A stretch of 27,218 nt of DNA from NCBI GenBank assembly GCA_040752695.1, contig JBFMGO010000084.1, positions 1 through 27,218 on the forward strand. The letters are read 5' to 3'. This DNA comes from a bacterium (GTDB lineage Bacteria; SZUA-182; DTGQ01). The notes beneath the pieces are model-generated. The model was not told the DNA's origin and did no database searches. It worked only from the letters and a program-made list of their open reading frames with translations. The position numbers were made by a program, and so were the translations under genes. Positions 1 through 7,534 of the stretch are shown here, piece by piece. Position 1 is the first letter of the stretch; each line of letters opens with the position of its first letter.

Positions 1-125
1 AAAATGGATTCGTCTACACCGACCTGAGAAATTAGCCAAGGTGATTGAAGGGGTTAAATTCGTCAACGGGGAAGAAATTGATAGGATCGCCGCCTAATGC
101 TATACACAACATTTGACAATAGCTC
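1..125 (+). mobile_element. IS256-family insertion sequence, right end (rest outside window)
   Basis: Frame 2..97 reads KWIRLHRPEKLAKVIEGVKFVNGEEIDRIAA*, matching the W.RL...L..VI.GV.F.[DN]G...AA C-terminus of a subgroup of IS256 transposases; followed by TATACACAACATTTGACAATAGCTC (101-125), resembling their right inverted repeat. Confidence 0.8.
2..97 (+). CDS. IS256-family transposase, C-terminal 31 aa (5' partial)
   Basis: Manual translation (absent from ORF track); TAA at 95-97. Confidence 0.78.
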   Translation, partial: KWIRLHRPEKLAKVIEGVKFVNGEEIDRIAA

Positions 126-1710
126 GGGCTATTGTCCTATCTTTGTTGAGTGATCCAAGATAAAGCCTAAATAAGTAGTTAAGATTCCTTGAAAACGATG
201 AGAGCTTTTCAAGGGTAGCTTGACCTCGAAAACCCTTGCTGATAATTTTTCCCATATTATCAGCATCCATCCTTAAAGCCCCTATAAGTTTTGCCCCTCT
301 TGAACTTGCAGCCAAGTGCTCAAGCATAGCAGCATTTTTATCTCCCAAGGAGTCAATTTCATCCTTTAGCCATTGTTTTTCTTCCTGATCCTCTGTCGCT
401 GATAATTGGGTATAAAGCTCCTCTTTTTCTTCAGCTATGTCTTGACGTATATCTTTAGGTAACATATCAACTGTTGTAACATATGTTCTCGCAAAAAGGG
501 GTATTGCCGAAGTACCAAGATCATTCAAAAAATCAATGCGTTCATCATAAATGACCCAGCGGCATGGAAGGTCGTAACGGTGAACCTTTGAAAGAAGATA
601 GTAGGAATTCTCTATTTGAAGACAATGGCCTGAATCTTCATTAGAAATTTGCACATACCTTATTTCTGGAATAACATTACCAAGACGTACAAGTCTATCA
701 CAAAAACTACATCTTATAGGTTCCTCGTAATCCTCTCTCCCCTTAGGCTGTGGCAAGACAGAATCTCGAAAGCAGATTTCACAATGTTGAGGGCTTGGAT
801 CTGTTTCATTAATAAATACAAGGTCCCCTTTTTGAATAATAGCTTGGAATTTCTGATTCTTTTTAATAAAGGCAGCCTTTGCTATTTCCTGCAAGGTAGA
901 TGAGATATCGAATTTGAGGTTTTCGTCAGATGCTTCTACTGTGGAAAATGTAATGTGTAACCTGCCATTAAACTTTTCTAAAAGCCAAGAATTTATATTA
1001 TAGTCAATGCTGCCTAACAACTCATTGTAGCCTGGAGGTTTGCTGGATAAGATGTATATGTTCCCACCACCATTCATAAGGATATTAACGTCATGTAAAT
1101 TAAAGGCATCAATGCAACGGTCAATAGCATGATTACAGAGTAATTCTATAAAAAAGGAACGAGAACGGAGGTTTTTTAATGCTCCTTGTGAAGTGATGTT
1201 ATAAATGAAACTTTGTATTCCCGATAAATCAAGATTGATTATCAAGTTTCCTGGATCATGTTTAAATTCTTTCCTATTTCTAGCTATAATTGCTTTGGCT
1301 GCCCTAACTTTATACGTATCGAAGATCGAAATATTTTCGTTTCCCTCAATGGGTATAGTTCCACCAAATTTTTCCAATAAAAACATAAGCTTATTAACGG
1401 TTAAAAGTCTAAGGTAGTTTTCATCAAGACTCTCATATCGGGTTTTTATTTCATTTAATGTTCCTGCCTTGATTTCATCGAGAAGGACATCCTTTACCTT
1501 TGTTGGGTAAGATATGTTAGATGTGATGCTAGTTGGCTTTACATAATAGGCACTTATAGTTTCATCCTTATCCTTAAAACCTACTTGATCAAAAATGGAT
1601 CTGAGGTACGGAGCATCTTGTTTGTGGAACCAATCTCTGACTTTCAGTAGTCCTTCAATGAGGATAGGTTTTAAGACATCTTCGCTCTTATAATATTCAT
1701 TTCCTGTCAT
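126..1710 (-). pseudogene. cas10: Type III CRISPR Cas10/Csm1-like large subunit, HD-less, interrupted by IS256 before the GGDD motif
   Basis: Palm1 LDLSGIQSFIY..GALKNLRSRSFFIELL, GGGNIYIL, Zn finger CEIC..CSFC, Palm2 ALRMDADNMGKI, LSSFSRNLNYLF; ORF runs into the IS end and stops at 100 without GGDD. Confidence 0.88.
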
Positions 1711-1821: not shown

Positions 1822-2793
1822 CTAAGGTAGCGAAACCTCAAACCTCCCCAAGCCGAAGCTGCTGCCTTTGCCTACGTGTACATACTCTCCCAGCCTGATA
1901 TATGGCCAGAAGGGAGAAAAATCCCCCTCGTAGATGGCCTCGCCCAAAAGGCCGCCCATCTTCATCCGCGTCTCCTGGCGATTGGAGTAGCGCTCCCAGT
2001 CCTCCCAGTGGAGGTTCCGGCTGACTGTATTGATCTTCGTGGCCTGCTCAATGAGATCCTTGAATCCGCTGTCTTCAAGTTTCTGGCCGCAGTGAAAATA
2101 GGAGAGCATAGAGATGCGGCGGAGGAGGTTCCTGAAAAAGACATGAAATTCAAGCTCTTTGGTCAGGCTGTTTTCATACTTGATCCGGGTTGGAGTGAGA
2201 AAATGCAGGCGAACTCTGGATGGAGGTGGAGAATTAATAATGTCCGGCCAGTGCACGGGGCCAAAACCTGTAGCCAGCATTTTATCATGGCCGCGATAAA
2301 TAACCTTTTGGTGATTTTCCCCGCCCTGAGATGAGTGTTCCAGTAAAGGGCTCTCCTCAGCCACTTTCACCAGATGGTATTTCCCCTTTCCTCTACCGAT
2401 GCCGATACGGCCAAGCTCCTCAAAGGCGTAAATAAAGTAAGGGAGATAGTCGATGGCCCGGCCAATAAGGACCAAACCAAAGCTCATCTCCTGCTCTGCC
2501 CGGTATGTTTCCAGGTCCTCCATCGGTGGCTCGATGATAAAAGGGTGTGGGGCGGCAGTGTATTTTTTCATCATCTCGGCCTCACTTGGCACCGGTGTCT
2601 CGAAAACCCAAGAGTACACGCACTGCTGCCTAAGGAGGCAATCTGAGCATTCCTTACCTTTAAACACGCAGACAACGCGCCGGAAGGCATGCCCGAAGCC
2701 TCCACGGAGCGTGGAACCCTTATATGCGGGCAGAAGGAGTGCTGTCTCCCCCTTGATGGTGAAGATAAACCGAGAAAAGCAAAATCGTTGCAT
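1822..2793 (-). CDS. cas6: CRISPR pre-crRNA processing endoribonuclease Cas6 (RAMP)
   Basis: GSTLRGGFG, Cys cluster C..C..C....C, FLTPTRIK, C-terminal Gly loop HVGKGSSFGLGRF. Confidence 0.95.
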   Translation of the reverse strand: MQRFCFSRFIFTIKGETALLLPAYKGSTLRGGFGHAFRRVVCVFKGKECSDCLLRQQCVYSWVFETPVPSEAEMMKKYTAAPHPFIIEPPMEDLETYRAEQEMSFGLVLIGRAIDYLPYFIYAFEELGRIGIGRGKGKYHLVKVAEESPLLEHSSQGGENHQKVIYRGHDKMLATGFGPVHWPDIINSPPPSRVRLHFLTPTRIKYENSLTKELEFHVFFRNLLRRISMLSYFHCGQKLEDSGFKDLIEQATKINTVSRNLHWEDWERYSNRQETRMKMGGLLGEAIYEGDFSPFWPYIRLGEYVHVGKGSSFGLGRFEVSLP

Positions 2794-2860
2794 GGTTACT
2801 CCGATGTGAGGAAAGATATATCGGGAAAGCCTTTATGAAAAAAATCCCATGTTTAACTGA

Positions 2861-2889
2861 ATATTAATACAAAATCGGTTTATGAGCAA
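2861..2889 (-). promoter_or_regulatory. Candidate sigma70 promoter for cas6-cas10
   Basis: Minus strand TTGCTC-17 bp-TAATAT, about 70 bp upstream of the cas6 ATG. Confidence 0.3.
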
Positions 2890-3035
2890 GGAATTTGTTT
2901 TAAGAAAAAATACGTTATTTATACTCCGCGAAATTAGGCGGGGTTCAGGATGCTGTAACGGTAAAGATTTATTTGGGGAAGATTTTGGTTGGAGCAGATC
3001 TCAAGCGTTGAACTTAAAATGCGCTTCCGGCTCTT

Positions 3036-3157
3036 ATCGCAATCTCTTCTTCATCAGGTCACTGTTTCCGAGAATAGTGATCGAATTTGGAGTCTAATAG
3101 GCGCCAAAAATGGAGAGTTGCAATCCCCTTTTTCGCATAAGTCTGCTTCTTTGCAAG
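3036..3157 (-). CRISPR. Degenerate CRISPR-like mini-array: repeat (3157-3117), 44-nt spacer (3116-3073), repeat (3072-3036)
   Basis: Minus-strand repeats CTTGCAAAGAAGCAGACTTATGCGAAAAAGGGGATTGCAAC and CTCGGAAACAGTGACCTGATGAAGAAGAGATTGCGAT (37 nt) share GAC.T.ATG..AA.AAG..GATTGC.A.; 3' ends resemble type III handles; co-oriented with and upstream of cas6. Confidence 0.6.
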
Positions 3158-3259
3158 GTCTGCTTCTTTGTACTGCCTGCTTCTTTGTACTGCCTGCTTC
3201 TTTGCAAGGTCTGCTTCTTTGCAAAGCCTGCTTCTTTATATTGCCTGCTTCATTACAAA
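3141..3259. repeat. 7 tandem copies of a 17-bp unit, GYCTGCTTCTTTG(C/T)A..
   Basis: Units start at 3141, 3158, 3175, 3192, 3209, 3226 and 3243. Confidence 0.95.
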
Positions 3260-3270
3260 AACCGCTCGAA

Positions 3271-3642
3271 AGGGGATAATATCGAAAAAAAATCTAATTT
3301 ATACATATAAAAGTATAAACTTATATAAAAATGAACACGTTTCTTATGGGGCCGGGGAAATTCTGATATTCAAGTCCATTTTCCAAATGGTTAAATACCA
3401 AATCCATCGACTTATCCACAAATTTTCCACATTTTCTGGGGAAAACAGGGTTATCATCCTGTTTTTAAAAGCTATAATCTGTGGGGAGCATATACACCAA
3501 CCACCACTAATCATCGTAATTAGTTACCTTCTATGCAAAGGTAACTAATTACGCGGATATCCGTCTTGTTTATTAAACTTATCATGCTTTCGCATGCTTA
3601 TTTCGCTTTCGTACAACCAGCCGTCTCAAATACTCATCCACA
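3271..3642. promoter_or_regulatory. DnaA-box cluster with AT-rich tract (oriC-like or other DnaA-binding locus)
   Basis: TTATCCACA 3412-3420 (perfect), TTTTCCACA 3423-3431, inverted TGGGGAAAA 3437-3445, TCATCCACA 3634-3642, weaker boxes at 3271, 3299 and 3480; AT-rich tract about 3280-3335. Confidence 0.5.
3515..3553. repeat. Perfect 16-bp inverted repeat with 7-nt loop
   Basis: CGTAATTAGTTACCTT-ctatgca-AAGGTAACTAATTACG. Confidence 0.95.
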
Positions 3643-3826
3643 TTGCATCGATTATCTTATTGAGCTGATCTGTTCAAGACGCAACTTTTGAAAATTCCTC
3701 ATCCCCTCTGGGAAGCGGTAGCCGTATGCTCAAAATAAGCCAAGAGGTTACCATTATTAGGAGAGGGAAGAATGGTAAACGATGAAAAAGCAGTGCGGAG
3801 GCCGCTTGAGTGCGACCGCTTTTCCC

Positions 3827-3854
3827 TTGACATCTCCAGGAAAACAGATAAAAT
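3827..3854 (+). promoter_or_regulatory. Candidate sigma70 promoter for the homocysteine biosynthesis operon
   Basis: TTGACA-16 bp-TAAAAT. Confidence 0.5.
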
Positions 3855-3939
3855 TGGAGGTTATTTAAAGCTTATGCTAAACTAAGTACTGGCTGCGGGA
3901 ATTCCTAAAGGCCAGTAATTGAATGGAGCCAGGTGTCGA

Positions 3940-3974
3940 AAATCCCCCTCACCCCCTGTATAAAAAGGGGGAAT
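3940..3974. repeat. REP-like palindromic element
   Basis: AAATCCCCCTCACCCCCTGTATAAAAAGGGGGAAT: C-run pair plus CCCCCT/AGGGGG hairpin, as seen in widespread intergenic REP-like repeats. Confidence 0.45.
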
Positions 3975-4161
3975 AAAAATTCTTTAGAAAAGATAAGGGA
4001 ATAACTTTACAAAAGGATGGGAATATCCTTACCGAATTCATCACTGAATTCGCCGGCGAATTTATCAGAAGGATCGAATTTATCAGCAGAATCTCATTTT
4101 ATTATCGGGCTCTCTTAAAAAAATGAGAGTAAGCCGTCTTTTTTGAAGGTGAGAGTAAGCC

Positions 4162-5340
4162 GTGAAAACATATGAAGAAATAAACGAGAAAATCAAGGAG
4201 GGGAAAGCTGTCGTAGTCACAGCCGATGAAGTATGTGATCTGGCTGATGCAGAAGGCATTAAGGCCGTTGCCGAAAAGGTCGATGTAGTTACAACGGCCA
4301 CCTTTGGACCGATGTGCTCATCCGGTGTCTTTTTAAATTTCGGGCATGCGGACCCTCCGGTCAAAATGAACAAGGTCTTACTGAATGACGTGCCCGCTTA
4401 TGCGTCTCTGGCTGCGGTGGATGCCTATCTGGGAGCTACCGCCATGTCGGAGACGGAAGGGATCGAGTATGGAGGGGGGCATGTGATCGAGGATCTTCTG
4501 GCAGGAAAGGTCATCCGCCTGGAGGCAGAAGGCTACAAAACGGACTGTTATCCAGGAGAAATGGTGAAAGCCGAGATTACCCTGGAAAGTATCAATCAGG
4601 CCATATTGCTCAACCCCCGCAACGCCTATCAGAACTATACGGCTGCAACCAATTCCTCGGCCAGGACGCTGCATACCTACATGGGCACCCTGTTGCCCAA
4701 GTTTGGAAATGTCGCCTATTCCACCTCCGGCCAGCTCAATCCGCTGATCAATGATCCGGAATACCGCACGATCGGCCTCGGTACGAAAATTTTTCTGGGC
4801 GGAGGAGTAGGGCACGTCCTCGGAGAGGGAACCCAGCATAATCCACATCAGATTCGGGCCGTCAATAAAGTTCCGCTCAGCAGTGCCGGAACCTTGATGC
4901 TCATGGGCGATCTGAAGCAGATGAACCCACGCTATATCCGGGGAGCGACCATAAAAAAGTACGGTGTAACTCTTATGGTGGGCGTTGGCATTCCGATTCC
5001 CGTGCTGGATGAGGGGATAGCCGAGTCAGTATCCATTCGGGACAAGGATATTTTTACGACTATTTACGATTACAGCGTGGAAAAGTTATCCAAGCCGACC
5101 TATGGCAGGGTTAATTATCAGGAATTGAGGTCCGGGTCAGTCCAGATTAATGGAAATCGGGTGCCGGCAAATTCCGTCTCCAGCCTTTTTATGGCCAGAG
5201 AAATTGCCTCAATCTTAAAAGATTGGATCAGGCGGGGTGAGTTTTTCCTGGTAGAGCCGATTCAGCTCCTCTCGCGCGATACCCGATTCAAGAACTTACC
5301 GCAAAAAGAAGGATCTAAAAAGGACGGCTTAAAGTTATGA
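4162..5340 (+). CDS. Homocysteine biosynthesis protein / L-aspartate semialdehyde sulfurtransferase (DUF39, MA1821/MJ0100 family), without CBS domains
   Basis: KTYEEINEKIK.GKAVVVTA, VDVVTTATFGPMCSSG, NPRNAYQNY, HTYMGTLLP, NDPEYRTIGLGTKIFLGG. Confidence 0.92.
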   Translation: MKTYEEINEKIKEGKAVVVTADEVCDLADAEGIKAVAEKVDVVTTATFGPMCSSGVFLNFGHADPPVKMNKVLLNDVPAYASLAAVDAYLGATAMSETEGIEYGGGHVIEDLLAGKVIRLEAEGYKTDCYPGEMVKAEITLESINQAILLNPRNAYQNYTAATNSSARTLHTYMGTLLPKFGNVAYSTSGQLNPLINDPEYRTIGLGTKIFLGGGVGHVLGEGTQHNPHQIRAVNKVPLSSAGTLMLMGDLKQMNPRYIRGATIKKYGVTLMVGVGIPIPVLDEGIAESVSIRDKDIFTTIYDYSVEKLSKPTYGRVNYQELRSGSVQINGNRVPANSVSSLFMAREIASILKDWIRRGEFFLVEPIQLLSRDTRFKNLPQKEGSKKDGLKL

Positions 5341-5869: not shown

Positions 5870-6955
5870 TTGCAGTCCTGGCGATTACTCGATTTAGCTG
5901 CCTACAATGCCTATGCAAACATGGCTATTGATGAGGCCGTGCTGAGAGCTTGCATCCAGCAAAAAGGCTCTCCGGCAACCATCCGGTTTTATACCTGGGT
6001 TCCACCGGCTGTTTCAATCGGACGTTTGCAGAAAATCGGAGGGAATCTCGATCTTGCTCAAGCCAAAGAGCTTGGTCTTGATGTCGTGCGAAGGCCAACC
6101 GGAGGAAGAATGGTGTTGCATAAGGGAGATGTTACCTACTCCCTCATTTTTACCGAGAATAATCCTGTCATTCCCAGGGGGATTCTGGCCAGCTACCAAA
6201 AGATAAGCCAGGCTGTTCAGCGCGGACTATGGCTTTTAGGGATACCAGCACAGATAAGTCTGGAGCGGAAAGCCAGTCATTCTCCTTTTTGCTTTTCAGG
6301 GGTGGCAAAACACGAAATTCTTGTTCACGGAAAGAAGATCATCGGTAATGCCCAAAGGAGAGAAAAAGGCGCCTGTTTGCAGCAGGGCTCAATGATGGTG
6401 GAAGACCAGCAGGCAGTGGTCCGCCGGTTGCTTTCTTGCGCCCGGTATTCTTCATTCCGGCAGGGTTTCCCGAATCCGGCTGAAGGTGCGAATCCGGCTG
6501 AAGGTGCGAATCCGGCTGAAAATGCGAACCTGGCTGAAAATGCGAACCCGGTAAGCAACGGGAACCCGGTAGACAGCGGGAGACCGTTAGACAAGGGAAT
6601 CCTGGCCAGGGGAGCGAACCTGTCCGGTGAAGCGAATCTGGCAGAGGGGCTGAACCCGGCAGGGGAGTCCAATCTTTCGGCAACTGCGGATCCGGCCAAA
6701 GGACTAAGCCGCTCCTGGGCGCTCGGATCGAATCGAAACGGCTGTGGAATGCCGGAATTTATCTCTCTCGAGGAGGTATTTTGTAGTCCCGTTGCTGTAT
6801 CCCTGATCAAGGAGGCCCTGATCCGCGGATTTGAAGAAACGTTTCACATCTCATTTACTTACGGTTCATTGACTGACTGGGAGGAAGAAGAGGCCGCAAG
6901 ACTTATTCAGGAAAAATACTCCCGGGATCTATGGAATAAGGAGGGCCATGTGTGA
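5870..6955 (+). CDS. Lipoate-protein ligase A / LipM-like octanoyltransferase with internal repeat insert
   Basis: NMAIDEA, TIRFYTW..PAVSIG, VVRRPTGGRMVLH, CF, GKKIIGNAQRR, LQQGS, C-terminal EKY...WN. Confidence 0.9.
   Translation: MQSWRLLDLAAYNAYANMAIDEAVLRACIQQKGSPATIRFYTWVPPAVSIGRLQKIGGNLDLAQAKELGLDVVRRPTGGRMVLHKGDVTYSLIFTENNPVIPRGILASYQKISQAVQRGLWLLGIPAQISLERKASHSPFCFSGVAKHEILVHGKKIIGNAQRREKGACLQQGSMMVEDQQAVVRRLLSCARYSSFRQGFPNPAEGANPAEGANPAENANLAENANPVSNGNPVDSGRPLDKGILARGANLSGEANLAEGLNPAGESNLSATADPAKGLSRSWALGSNRNGCGMPEFISLEEVFCSPVAVSLIKEALIRGFEETFHISFTYGSLTDWEEEEAARLIQEKYSRDLWNKEGHV
6473..6706 (+). repeat. About 13 in-frame 18-bp tandem units encoding (NPAEGA)-like hexapeptides
   Basis: AATCCGGCTGAAGGTGCG twice, then progressively diverged units. 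Confidence 0.9.
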
Positions 6956-7395
6956 GTATTACGGCTGCCATTGCGACTATTGACGAGATCGATCCATCCT
7001 GGCGGGAACTGATGCAAAAAGCCGGTCAAGCCAAAGAGAAGGCCATCGCCCCGATATCAGGATTCAGAGTAGGTGCAGCTCTTCTCACCGCCGGGGGAAG
7101 GTGCTACCTTGGCTGCAACATCGAAAATATATCTTTGAGCCTCAGCATCTGTGCTGAACGGGTGGCCTTTTTAAAGGCACTCTCCGAAGGAGAGACCAGT
7201 TTCAGTGCACTGGCTATTGTAAGCGACAGCGAGTCGGTAGTAACCCCCTGTGGGGCCTGCCGACAGTTAATATGGGAGTTTGCTCCTGAGATAACCATCA
7301 TCATGGGTAATCCGGGAGGGGATATTCAGTGGACCAGGATAACTGACCTGCTGCCGCAAGCCTTCCATTATCTTGACAGCGCCTGTCCACAGTAA
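6952..7395 (+). CDS. cdd: Cytidine deaminase (homotetrameric type)
   Basis: AP.SGFRVGAALL, GCNIEN, ICAERVA, PCGACRQ, LLPQAF. Confidence 0.95.
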   Translation: MSITAAIATIDEIDPSWRELMQKAGQAKEKAIAPISGFRVGAALLTAGGRCYLGCNIENISLSLSICAERVAFLKALSEGETSFSALAIVSDSESVVTPCGACRQLIWEFAPEITIIMGNPGGDIQWTRITDLLPQAFHYLDSACPQ

Positions 7396-7500
7396 GGGCG
7401 GGTGCGATTAGAATCCAGGCAGCACCTGCCCGCATTAAGGGCGGGTAAGATCCGAATCTTGACAGTGCCTGTCCGGCAGCAAGGGGCGGGTAAGATCCGA
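7370..7500. repeat. Three tandem 43-45 bp units with GC hairpin, overlapping the cdd stop
   Basis: Units at 7370, 7413 and 7456: ATCTTGACAG.GCCTG.CC.CA..AAGGGCGGGT..GAT..GA. Confidence 0.9.
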
Positions 7501-7534
7501 AACGTATGAAAAGAGAGAGGGTTGATATTTTAAG

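What the first reader, a model, noticed from the sequence alone, without database searches (positions are those of the whole stretch)
3036..3157. Hidden one-spacer CRISPR-like mini-array upstream of cas6: candidate regulatory crRNA in a type III locus
Seen: two mutually divergent repeat-like sequences on the cas strand, ending ATTGCAAC and ATTGCGAT, flank a 44-nt spacer (TCTCCATTTTTGGCGCCTATTAGACTCCAAATTCGATCACTATT), about 240 bp upstream of cas6, with an AT-rich leader-like tract further upstream. Known: degenerate repeat-spacer-repeat units act as CreA/CreR (type I) or scaRNA (type II) regulators, and array finders tend to miss them. Inference: a Cas6-processed regulatory or antitoxin guide for a type III complex, or a decayed array remnant. 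I found no convincing target in the window.
Basis: partly seen in the sequence, partly recalled or inferred. Interest (0 to 1): 0.75.

Follow-up and report, generated by a model that had tools for sequence, protein, structure and literature searches.

The report
Decayed one-spacer CRISPR array remnant
The two repeat-like sequences upstream of cas6 are the worn-down last unit of an ordinary CRISPR array in a broken type III locus, which is a common and already described kind of leftover, not a demonstrated regulatory RNA.

Summary
On the cas strand, R2 (3072..3036) is a true CRISPR repeat. It matches the repeats next to related cas6 genes at 32 of 37 positions and is the only strong hit to that repeat family in the 6.05-Mb assembly. 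R1 (3153..3117) is a much-eroded copy that keeps the 3' GGGATTGCAAC. A 44-nt spacer lies between them.

The unit sits where relatives carry ordinary arrays: upstream of cas6, on the same strand. Those arrays have 1 to 12 spacers that differ between strains, and a degenerate last repeat.

The locus is broken:
- cas10 stops about 15 codons before its GGDD motif, at the edge of a multi-copy element.
- No RAMP gene, no cas2 and no other piece of cas10 is in the assembly, which is 96.6% complete.
- The family's leader sequence is missing.

The spacer has no match above chance in the window, the genome, related loci, phages, plasmids or viral contigs. The nearest cas6 relatives lack the unit.

Verdict: a decayed array remnant, about 0.8. 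A published survey reached the same view of type III mini-arrays (PMC10120712). A regulatory crRNA is not excluded, about 0.05. One odd detail is that the 5' half of R1 is amplified into about seven 17-nt tandem copies.

The parts
1..125 (.). End of a multi-copy element, probably an insertion sequence, that abuts and truncates cas10. The contig ends inside it.
   Evidence: Window 1-125/128 is 99-100% identical to the terminal 124-128 nt of contigs C198, C161 and C6, all at contig ends. On the + strand it encodes the last 31 codons of an ORF. No NCBIfam match was found for that peptide.
100..1710 (-). Truncated cas10/csm1: 536 codons against about 809 in relatives.
   Evidence: Matches Pfam Csm1_B and only positions 2-48 of the 133-position Cas10 palm2 model. 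Matches NCBIfam TIGR02578 over positions 91-558 of 753. Aligns to residues 19-540 of the 809-aa L007 Cas10 at 57% identity and stops just before that protein's ...IYAGGD... motif. No other Cas10 piece is in the assembly.
1822..2793 (-). cas6, intact, 323 aa.
   Evidence: Pfam PF10040 at 2.7e-22. Full-length matches at 62-75% identity to cas6 in relatives, with no stops.
2801..2906 (-). Conserved promoter-like block just upstream of cas6. It lies downstream of the mini-array and is separate from it.
   Evidence: 77% identity over 100 nt with L067, 74% over 61 nt with L124, and 77% over 66 nt with G002:C33. The shared CTTGCT/CTTGAT ... TGTATTAATAT motifs were read. Its role as a promoter is inferred.
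3036..3072 (-). R2: terminal (cas6-proximal) CRISPR repeat, well preserved, with a degenerate last base (..ATTGCGAT against ..ATTGCGAC).
   Evidence: Terminal repeats of relatives also differ only at their 3' ends.
3073..3116 (-). The single 44-nt spacer.
   Evidence: Its length falls within the 36-46 nt range of relatives. No match above chance was found anywhere searched.
3117..3153 (-). R1: eroded leader-side repeat. Its 3' GGGATTGCAAC is intact, so the 8-nt tag would be AUUGCAAC.
   Evidence: The best gapped match is to the L009 repeat, 30 of its 36 positions with 4 gaps.
3143..3258 (-). 17-nt tandem repeat, 6.4 copies (cas-strand unit about TGCAAAGAAGCAGACCT). It is continuous with the 5' half of R1 and is probably an amplification of it.
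   Evidence: TRF gives period 17, 6.4 copies and 84% matches. The last unit is the 5' part of R1. The 5' part resembles family repeats only marginally: 3.5% of shuffles score as well.
3262..3349 (-). AT-rich tract at the outer edge of the cas remnant. It is not recognisably the family leader.
   Evidence: GC is 0.19-0.29. A profile of five related leaders finds nothing in the window better than E = 4.8, yet finds 10 other leaders at E <= 1e-20. Synteny with same-genus genome G002 starts at about 3360.

Best explanation
This is the vestige of an ordinary type III-A-associated CRISPR array. The last spacer survives with its two flanking repeats, in the normal array position just upstream of cas6 and on the same strand. 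R2 is the array's terminal repeat. R1, once the leader-side repeat, has eroded, and its 5' half has been amplified by slippage into about seven 17-nt tandem copies. The original leader is no longer recognisable.

The surrounding locus is decaying too. cas10 is cut off before its cyclase motif by a multi-copy mobile element. The backbone (RAMP) genes and a nearby adaptation module are not found. Without spacer acquisition to renew the repeats, and without an effector to select for the crRNA, the unit drifts.

At most, the intact Cas6 may still cut a transcript at R2, and perhaps at R1, giving an orphan RNA with no complex to load into.

Shown here: repeat homology, position, truncation of cas10, and absence of targets and of conservation. 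Inferred: the order of events, slippage as the origin of the tandem copies, and lack of function.
For: 1. R2 is cognate to the repeats of this Cas6 clade. R1 is a significant but eroded copy.

2. The position and strand are typical. Of 88 related cas6 loci with at least 600 nt upstream, 11 have family repeats within 900 nt upstream. All are on the cas6 strand, and the last repeat ends 116-586 nt from the start codon. Here the figure is 243 by that script's count.

3. Relatives' arrays are ordinary. L070, L074 and L077 have 1 spacer, L072 and L076 have 2, and L073 has 12. Spacers differ between loci. The terminal repeat differs only at its 3' end. G005:C285 has leader, repeat, one spacer and a degenerate terminal repeat.

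4. cas10 is truncated before GGDD at a repeat-element junction.

5. In the assembly (96.57% complete) there is no RAMP family hit, no Cas2 and no other Cas10 fragment. Apart from R2, no family repeat scores better than E = 0.8. The only cas1 is a lone cas1-cas4 pair on another contig, with no array nearby.

6. No family leader is present.

7. The cas block is strain-specific. Same-genus genomes G002 and G001 are syntenic only from about 3360 and 3816 rightwards.

8. A survey of repeat-like elements found mini-arrays beside 10-16% of type III loci, with no conservation and no targets. It judged them degraded repeats (PMC10120712; passages and its Table 1 read).
Against: - R1 is more degenerate than R2. 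That is the reverse of the usual pattern in live arrays, where the trailer repeat decays first, and it is the pattern reported for functional CreA RNAs (PMC9458426).
- The parts a mature crRNA would contain are the better-preserved ones: the last 11 nt of R1 at 10 of 11, and the first 26 nt of R2 at 22-23 of 26.
- cas6 is intact and has a conserved promoter-like block.
- The genome is a 239-contig draft. The rest of the csm operon could lie on an unbinned contig, and the insertion into cas10 could be recent.
- Expression could not be examined.
Confidence: 0.8

Rival explanations
1. It is a small but live CRISPR array. The single spacer is transcribed, Cas6 cuts at R1 and R2, and the crRNA arms a type III complex encoded on a part of the genome that was not assembled or binned. 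This would be ordinary immunity, not regulation.
For: One-spacer arrays with this architecture occur in relatives. cas6 is intact. The 8-nt tag of R1, ATTGCAAC, is exactly the tag of the L009 array. The spacer length is normal.
Against: R1 and R2 agree at only 20 of 37 positions, whereas the repeats of live one-spacer arrays in relatives are near-identical. There is no leader. cas10 is truncated. No RAMP genes or cas2 were found. No protospacer was found.
Confidence: 0.08
2. It is a cr-like regulatory or antitoxin RNA of the CreA/CreR kind, but for a type III complex. The degenerate repeats would stabilise a fixed guide that represses a host or cas transcript through partial pairing.
For: It has two mutually divergent repeats, with the first more diverged than the second, as in CreTA (PMC9458426). 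The preserved segments are those found in a mature crRNA. It lies in a long intergenic region next to cas6.
Against: - The best full-length match of the spacer is 23 of 44 in the window, against a mean maximum of 24.5 for shuffles.
- The best match in the genome is 27 of 44, against 27-30 for shuffles.
- The longest exact match in the window is 10 nt, against 9-14 for shuffles.
- The unit is absent upstream of the closest cas6 relatives, L124 and L067, and the spacer is absent from 135 related loci.
- The effector is broken or missing. An active addiction module should have opposed exactly that loss.
- The survey in PMC10120712 found no evidence of function for type III mini-arrays.
- The CreR preprint's abstract names only types I-B, I-E and V-A (listing and abstract only).
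Confidence: 0.05
3. It is a Cas6-centred element. The seven tandem copies of the repeat's 5' half, together with R1 and R2, would make an RNA that binds or titrates Cas6, or that Cas6 processes for a role outside immunity.
For: The tandem units are continuous with the 5' half of R1 and resemble the 5' part of family repeats. cas6 is the one cas gene still intact.
Against: The resemblance of the 5' part is marginal: 3.5% of shuffles score as well. A TRF scan of the regions upstream of 105 related cas6 genes (96 of them with at least 300 nt) found only other short tandems at 13 of them, none comparable. Slippage explains the copies without any function. How this Cas6 recognises its repeat is unknown.
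Confidence: 0.03
4. It is a chance resemblance, and there is no CRISPR-derived sequence here.
For: Taken alone, R1 is weak and invisible to nhmmer.
Against: R2 is unique in the genome at 39 bits, with E = 4.9e-5. R1 lies on the same strand at a normal spacer distance, and its gapped score was reached by only a fraction of 0.0001 of 20,000 random 44-mers.
Confidence: 0.01

Closest known systems
Degraded repeat mini-arrays flanking type III CRISPR-cas loci (Shmakov et al. 2023, PMC10120712)
   Same: A repeat-spacer-repeat unit with degenerate repeats lies at the edge of a type III cas operon. It has no target and is not conserved in related genomes. That is exactly the class the survey describes and judges non-functional.
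   Different: Here the decay of the whole locus is also visible: cas10 is cut by a mobile element and no RAMP genes are found. The 5' half of the first repeat has been tandemly amplified.
Ordinary one- to few-spacer CRISPR arrays upstream of cas6 in the same Cas6 clade (L070-L077, L007, G005:C285)
   Same: Same repeat family, strand, distance to cas6 and spacer length, and a terminal repeat altered at its 3' end.
   Different: Those arrays have near-identical repeats and a conserved leader with GGTTACAG motifs. Here R1 is eroded and the leader is not detectable.
CreTA / CreR cr-like RNAs of type I and V-A systems
   Same: Two degenerate repeats surround a fixed spacer, the first repeat is more diverged than the second, and the unit lies next to cas genes (PMC9458426).
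   Different: No partially matching target or toxin gene was found, the unit is not conserved, no intact effector is present, and the locus is type III. The sources I read report no such RNA for type III.

Membership tests
CRISPR array of the 37-nt repeat family linked to this Cas6 clade | At least two same-strand copies of the family repeat | tested here: met
   R2 is strong. R1 is weak but significant.
CRISPR array of the 37-nt repeat family linked to this Cas6 clade | Spacer length in the family range | tested here: met
   The spacer is 44 nt. Relatives range from 36 to 46 nt (n = 55).
CRISPR array of the 37-nt repeat family linked to this Cas6 clade | Position upstream of cas6 on the same strand, as in relatives | tested here: met
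   11 of 88 loci have same-strand repeats 116-586 nt from cas6. The window's figure is 243.
Active (acquiring) CRISPR array | Near-identical repeats | tested here: not met
   R1 and R2 agree at 20 of 37 positions.
Active (acquiring) CRISPR array | Family leader upstream of the first repeat | tested here: not met
   The leader profile finds nothing in the window better than E = 4.8, but finds the leaders of relatives. Leaders diverge fast, and L009's was not found either, so this is weak evidence.
Active (acquiring) CRISPR array | cas1 and cas2 present | tested here: not met
   There is no Cas2 hit in the assembly. The single cas1-cas4 pair lies on contig C6, away from this locus.
Complete type III-A (Csm) effector locus | Full-length Cas10 with the GGDD palm domain | tested here: not met
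   Cas10 is truncated at about residue 529 of about 809, before GGDD. No other piece is present.
Complete type III-A (Csm) effector locus | RAMP backbone subunits (Csm3/4/5) | tested here: not met
   PF03787 gives no hit in the assembly, which is 96.57% complete. tblastn with the neighbours of relatives' cas genes also found none. Absence from a draft is not proof of absence.
CreTA (CRISPR-regulated toxin-antitoxin) | Degenerate repeat, pseudo-spacer, degenerate repeat, with the first repeat more diverged | tested here: met
   R1 matches family repeats at 22-23 of 37 positions and R2 at 31-32 of 37. The feature is taken from PMC9458426.
CreTA (CRISPR-regulated toxin-antitoxin) | Pseudo-spacer partly complementary to the promoter of an adjacent toxin gene | tested here: not met
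   No match above shuffled controls in the window or the genome.
CreTA (CRISPR-regulated toxin-antitoxin) | Works through an intact cognate effector complex | tested here: not met
   cas10 is truncated and no RAMP genes are found.
CreR (Cas-regulating RNA) | Spacer partly complementary to a cas promoter, and the unit conserved among related loci | tested here: not met
   There is no match to the cas6 promoter block or elsewhere in the window. The unit is absent from L124 and L067, and the spacer from 135 related loci.
scaRNA / tracrRNA-dependent regulation (type II) | A type II locus with Cas9 and tracrRNA | not tested
   The locus is type III by its Cas10/Csm1 hits. I did not search the genome for Cas9.
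Any functional crRNA | Transcription and Cas6 processing | not testable with these tools
   No RNA run was listed. This needs small-RNA sequencing or an in vitro cleavage assay.

The most novel reading that the evidence does not exclude
The unit is the first CreA/CreR-like fixed guide of a type III system. Its first repeat would have degenerated on purpose, and seven tandem copies of the repeat's 5' half would serve as extra Cas6-binding sites. The effector genes would then lie on an unassembled contig, or have been lost only recently through the insertion into cas10.
Probability: 0.04. Interest if true: 0.75.

Novelty: new member of a known kind. Interest (0 to 1): 0.12.

Why it matters
It matters little. 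It is one more example of how CRISPR-Cas loci decay: a mobile element cuts cas10, the effector genes are not found, and the last spacer and its repeats drift.

It does serve as a worked control for scans that look for regulatory mini-arrays. A degenerate repeat-spacer-repeat next to cas6, with the first repeat more diverged, can arise by plain decay. Target, conservation and effector integrity should therefore be checked before function is claimed. If the regulatory reading were true after all, it would be the first such RNA for a type III system.

Tried and rejected
- **Sequencing runs.** One DNA run was listed, holding 0.06 of the sampled words. No RNA holder was listed. Laying that run gave 20 short pieces, 17 of them under 90% alike, so other organisms. 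None covered 3092-3352, and they say nothing about the unit.
- **Fuzzy regex scan** for repeats timed out. I replaced it with nhmmer and a position matrix.
- **nhmmer on the R1 region alone** gave nothing.
- **Rfam, permissive threshold, 2600-4300.** Only two far-sub-threshold miRNA-family matches on the palindrome at 3510-3558.
- **Promoter scan.** No minus-strand promoter-like site in 2700-4200. The same scan also misses the conserved block upstream of cas6, so this is uninformative.
- **Spacer target searches.** None gave a match above chance:
  - phages: best hit 24 nt, E = 3
  - plasmids: E = 2
  - IMG/VR: exact 44-mer, 0 hits, and an exact search misses mismatched protospacers
  - own genome
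  - window
  - 135 related loci, 851 kb
- **Folding.** R1 and R2 are unstructured, like the family repeat. A hairpin between the 3' part of R1 and the start of the spacer has -11.8 kcal/mol, and 7 of 200 shuffles fold as well. It was picked after the fact and is not significant in the 81-nt context.
- **Tandem half-repeats upstream of other cas6 genes.** Nothing comparable was found.
- **Identity of the element at 1-125.** No NCBIfam hit for its 31-residue ORF end, so calling it an insertion sequence is an inference from copy number and contig breaks.
- **Earlier notes of this scan.** None for this place.
- **The ORFs on the + strand across the unit** (2989-3279 and 3168-3548) have no credible family hit. 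I treat them as spurious.

Full report
**Layout.** The window is a whole 27,218-nt contig (C84) of a 6.05-Mb, 239-contig draft genome that is 96.57% complete. The cas genes lie on the minus strand.
- cas10/csm1 is at 100..1710. It matches Pfam Csm1_B and the start of Cas10 palm2, and NCBIfam TIGR02578.
- cas6 is at 1822..2793 and matches PF10040.
- Next comes a 1.37-kb non-coding stretch.
- At 4162 a housekeeping operon on the plus strand begins: homocysteine synthesis, a NIL-ferredoxin, a lipoate ligase and others.

Read on the cas strand:
- R1 is 3153..3117 and ends ATTGCAAC.
- The 44-nt spacer is 3116..3073.
- R2 is 3072..3036 and ends ATTGCGAT, 242 nt before the cas6 start.

Beyond that lies an AT-rich tract with GC 0.19 at 3280-3349.

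**Are these real CRISPR repeats?** The assembly has no CRISPR array that a k-mer scan could find. Every hit was a coding Gly/Tyr-type repeat. I therefore took the cognate repeat from relatives.
- Searching the Cas6 protein in genome and metagenome collections gave 52 and 65 loci. A search of 40 related genomes added more.
- Arrays next to these cas6 genes carry one family of 36-37-nt repeats. An example is GTCGGAAACAGAGACCTGATGAATAAGGGATTGCGAC, found in same-family genomes G004 and G005.
- R2 matches that repeat at 32 of 37 positions, and the array-2 repeat of L002 at 31 of 37.
- With a profile of the family, R2 is the only significant hit in the whole genome (E = 4.9e-5). With a position matrix it is the only one of 12.08 million positions to score 15 bits or more, at 39 bits.

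R1 is much weaker.
- nhmmer does not see it.
- Ungapped, it matches family repeats at 22-23 of 37 positions: 10 of the last 11 but only 12-13 of the first 26.
- Its matrix score of 5.4 is the second best on the window's cas strand and is reached at about 3e-5 of genome positions.
- Its gapped score of 26 was reached by a fraction of 0.0001 of 20,000 random genomic 44-mers and by none of 5,000 shuffles.
- It sits on the right strand at a normal spacer distance. Relatives' spacers are 36-46 nt, n = 55.

So this is a real repeat-spacer-repeat unit with one good repeat and one eroded repeat.

**What relatives have at this place.**
- Of 88 related loci with at least 600 nt upstream of cas6, 11 have family repeats within 900 nt. 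All are on the cas6 strand and end 116-586 nt from the start codon. This is a lower bound, because distant loci use repeats that the profile misses.
- In one set of close relatives the arrays are plainly ordinary. They have 1 spacer (L070, L074, L077), 2 spacers (L072, L076) or 12 spacers (L073). Spacers differ between loci. Repeats are identical except for the last one, which is altered at its 3' end (..GAGCG in place of ..GAGAC).
- G005:C285 shows leader, perfect repeat, one 43-nt spacer and a degenerate last repeat ending ..ATCGAT.
- R2, with ..GCGAT in place of ..GCGAC, looks like such a terminal repeat.
- These arrays share a conserved leader with GGTTACAG motifs. A profile of five leaders finds ten others at E <= 1e-20 but nothing in the window better than E = 4.8.

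**State of the locus.**
- The window's Cas10 aligns with residues 19-540 of the 809-residue Cas10 of L007 at 57% identity. It stops a few residues before that protein's ..IYAGGD.. motif.
- Pfam sees only positions 2-48 of the 133-position palm2 model.
- Homology ends at about window position 125. From there to position 1 the sequence is 99-100% identical to the last 124-128 nt of three other contigs, all at contig ends.
- That is the signature of a multi-copy element, most likely an insertion sequence, that the assembler could not cross. Its family could not be named.
- In the assembly there is no RAMP hit, no Cas2 and no other piece of Cas10. There is also no homologue of the other cas-neighbour genes of relatives.
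- The one cas1 lies with cas4 on contig C6, without an array.
- Same-genus genomes G002 and G001 share synteny with the window only from about 3360 and 3816 rightwards, and have other genes on the far side. The block from the element through cas10, cas6 and the mini-array to the AT-rich tract is therefore strain-specific.

**Tests of the regulatory reading.**
- A CreA/CreR-type RNA needs a partial target. The spacer's best full-length match in the window is 23 of 44, against a mean maximum of 24.5 for shuffled spacers.
- Its longest exact match in the window is 10 nt, against 9-14 for shuffles.
- Its best match in the genome is 27 of 44, against 27-30 for shuffles.
- No phage, plasmid or viral-contig match was found.
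- It should be conserved, but it is not. The closest cas6 relatives share only a promoter-like block just upstream of cas6 (window 2801-2906) and have no repeat there. These are L124 (92% identity over the first 64 residues, with 4 kb upstream) and L067 (75%). L067 has only 261 nt of upstream sequence.
- The spacer occurs in none of 135 related loci.
- It needs an effector, which here is broken or missing. An addiction module of the CreTA kind should have opposed exactly that loss.

In fairness, R1 is more diverged than R2, and the better-kept parts are those a mature crRNA would contain. That is the pattern described for CreA (PMC9458426, abstract and passages read). With a single example this is weak.

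**Literature.**
- The survey by Shmakov and colleagues (PMC10120712; passages and its Table 1 read) found mini-arrays beside 10-16% of type III loci, not conserved and without targets. It concluded they are probably degraded repeats.
- The CreR preprint names types I-B, I-E and V-A (10.1101/2023.03.10.532045; listing and abstract only).
- In a 2025 review of CreTA, CreR and CrePA, every use of 'type III' refers to toxin-antitoxin types (PMC12737573; passages read).
- In two full-text searches I found no report of a type III cr-like regulator. Supplements of these papers were not read.

**The tandem repeat.**
- The 17-nt units (cas strand, about TGCAAAGAAGCAGACCT) run straight into R1, and the last unit is R1's 5' part.
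- In a gapped alignment R1 matches the L009 repeat at 30 of its 36 positions with four gaps. The unit corresponds to that repeat's first 16 nt.
- On its own, the resemblance of the 5' part is marginal: 3.5% of shuffles score as well.
- Slippage of the repeat's 5' half is the simplest account. A TRF scan of the regions upstream of 105 related cas6 genes (96 of them with at least 300 nt) found nothing comparable.

**Verdict.** This is a decayed, one-spacer remnant of an ordinary array in a decaying type III-A locus, with confidence about 0.8. A live small array served by an unassembled effector stands at about 0.08, a type III cr-like regulator at about 0.05, and a Cas6-centred RNA at about 0.03. 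It is a real feature and an ordinary one.

Noticed in passing
window 1-125 and 100-1710: cas10 is cut off about 15 codons before its GGDD motif, at the edge of an element that is also found at the ends of contigs C198, C161 and C6. It is probably an insertion sequence, and the contig breaks inside it.
   Followed up: yes
window 3143-3258: A 17-nt tandem repeat of 6.4 copies, with a higher-order 51-nt period. It is continuous with the 5' half of the eroded repeat R1.
   Followed up: partly
window 2801-2906: A promoter-like block upstream of cas6 (CTTGCT ... TGTATTAATAT). It is conserved at 74-77% in L067, L124 and two places in same-genus genome G002, even where the Cas6 proteins are only about 41-45% identical.
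   Followed up: partly
window 3360-3446 (boxes at 3412-3420 and 3424-3432): This block is 86% identical to G002:C2. It holds TTATCCACA and TTTTCCACA 3 nt apart, both kept in G002 as TTATCCACA and TTATTCACA. They look like DnaA boxes; that label is from memory, not from a tool.
   Followed up: no
window 3882-3979: An intergenic element of about 100 nt, with 8 further copies at 77-81% identity on G000 contigs C26 (two), C12, C71, C37 (two), C157 and C6.
   Followed up: no
window 3510-3558: A near-perfect palindrome with 21-nt arms, 90% complementary, and a 7-nt gap. No T-run follows it. Its only Rfam matches are far below threshold.
   Followed up: no
G000:C6, locus L066 8638-10595: A lone cas4-cas1 pair between unrelated genes. 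No cas2 hit exists anywhere in the assembly and no array lies within 5 kb.
   Followed up: partly
L070, L074, L076, L077 (about 3215-3390): Relative to L072 and L073, the CRISPR leaders of these loci carry an insertion of about 175 nt with inverted ends, between the conserved leader motifs and the first repeat.
   Followed up: no
L135 (G005:C285), last 250 nt: A one-spacer array with an intact family leader, a perfect first repeat and a heavily degenerate last repeat. It is an intermediate stage towards what the window shows.
   Followed up: partly
window 3098-3138 (-): The 3' part of R1 pairs with the first 16 nt of the spacer (-11.8 kcal/mol), which puts the 8-nt tag in the loop. It is not significant in context.
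   Followed up: yes
window 7370-7501: A 43-nt tandem repeat of 3 copies at the end of, and just downstream of, the deaminase gene (6952-7395). Each copy has a GC-rich inverted repeat.
   Followed up: no
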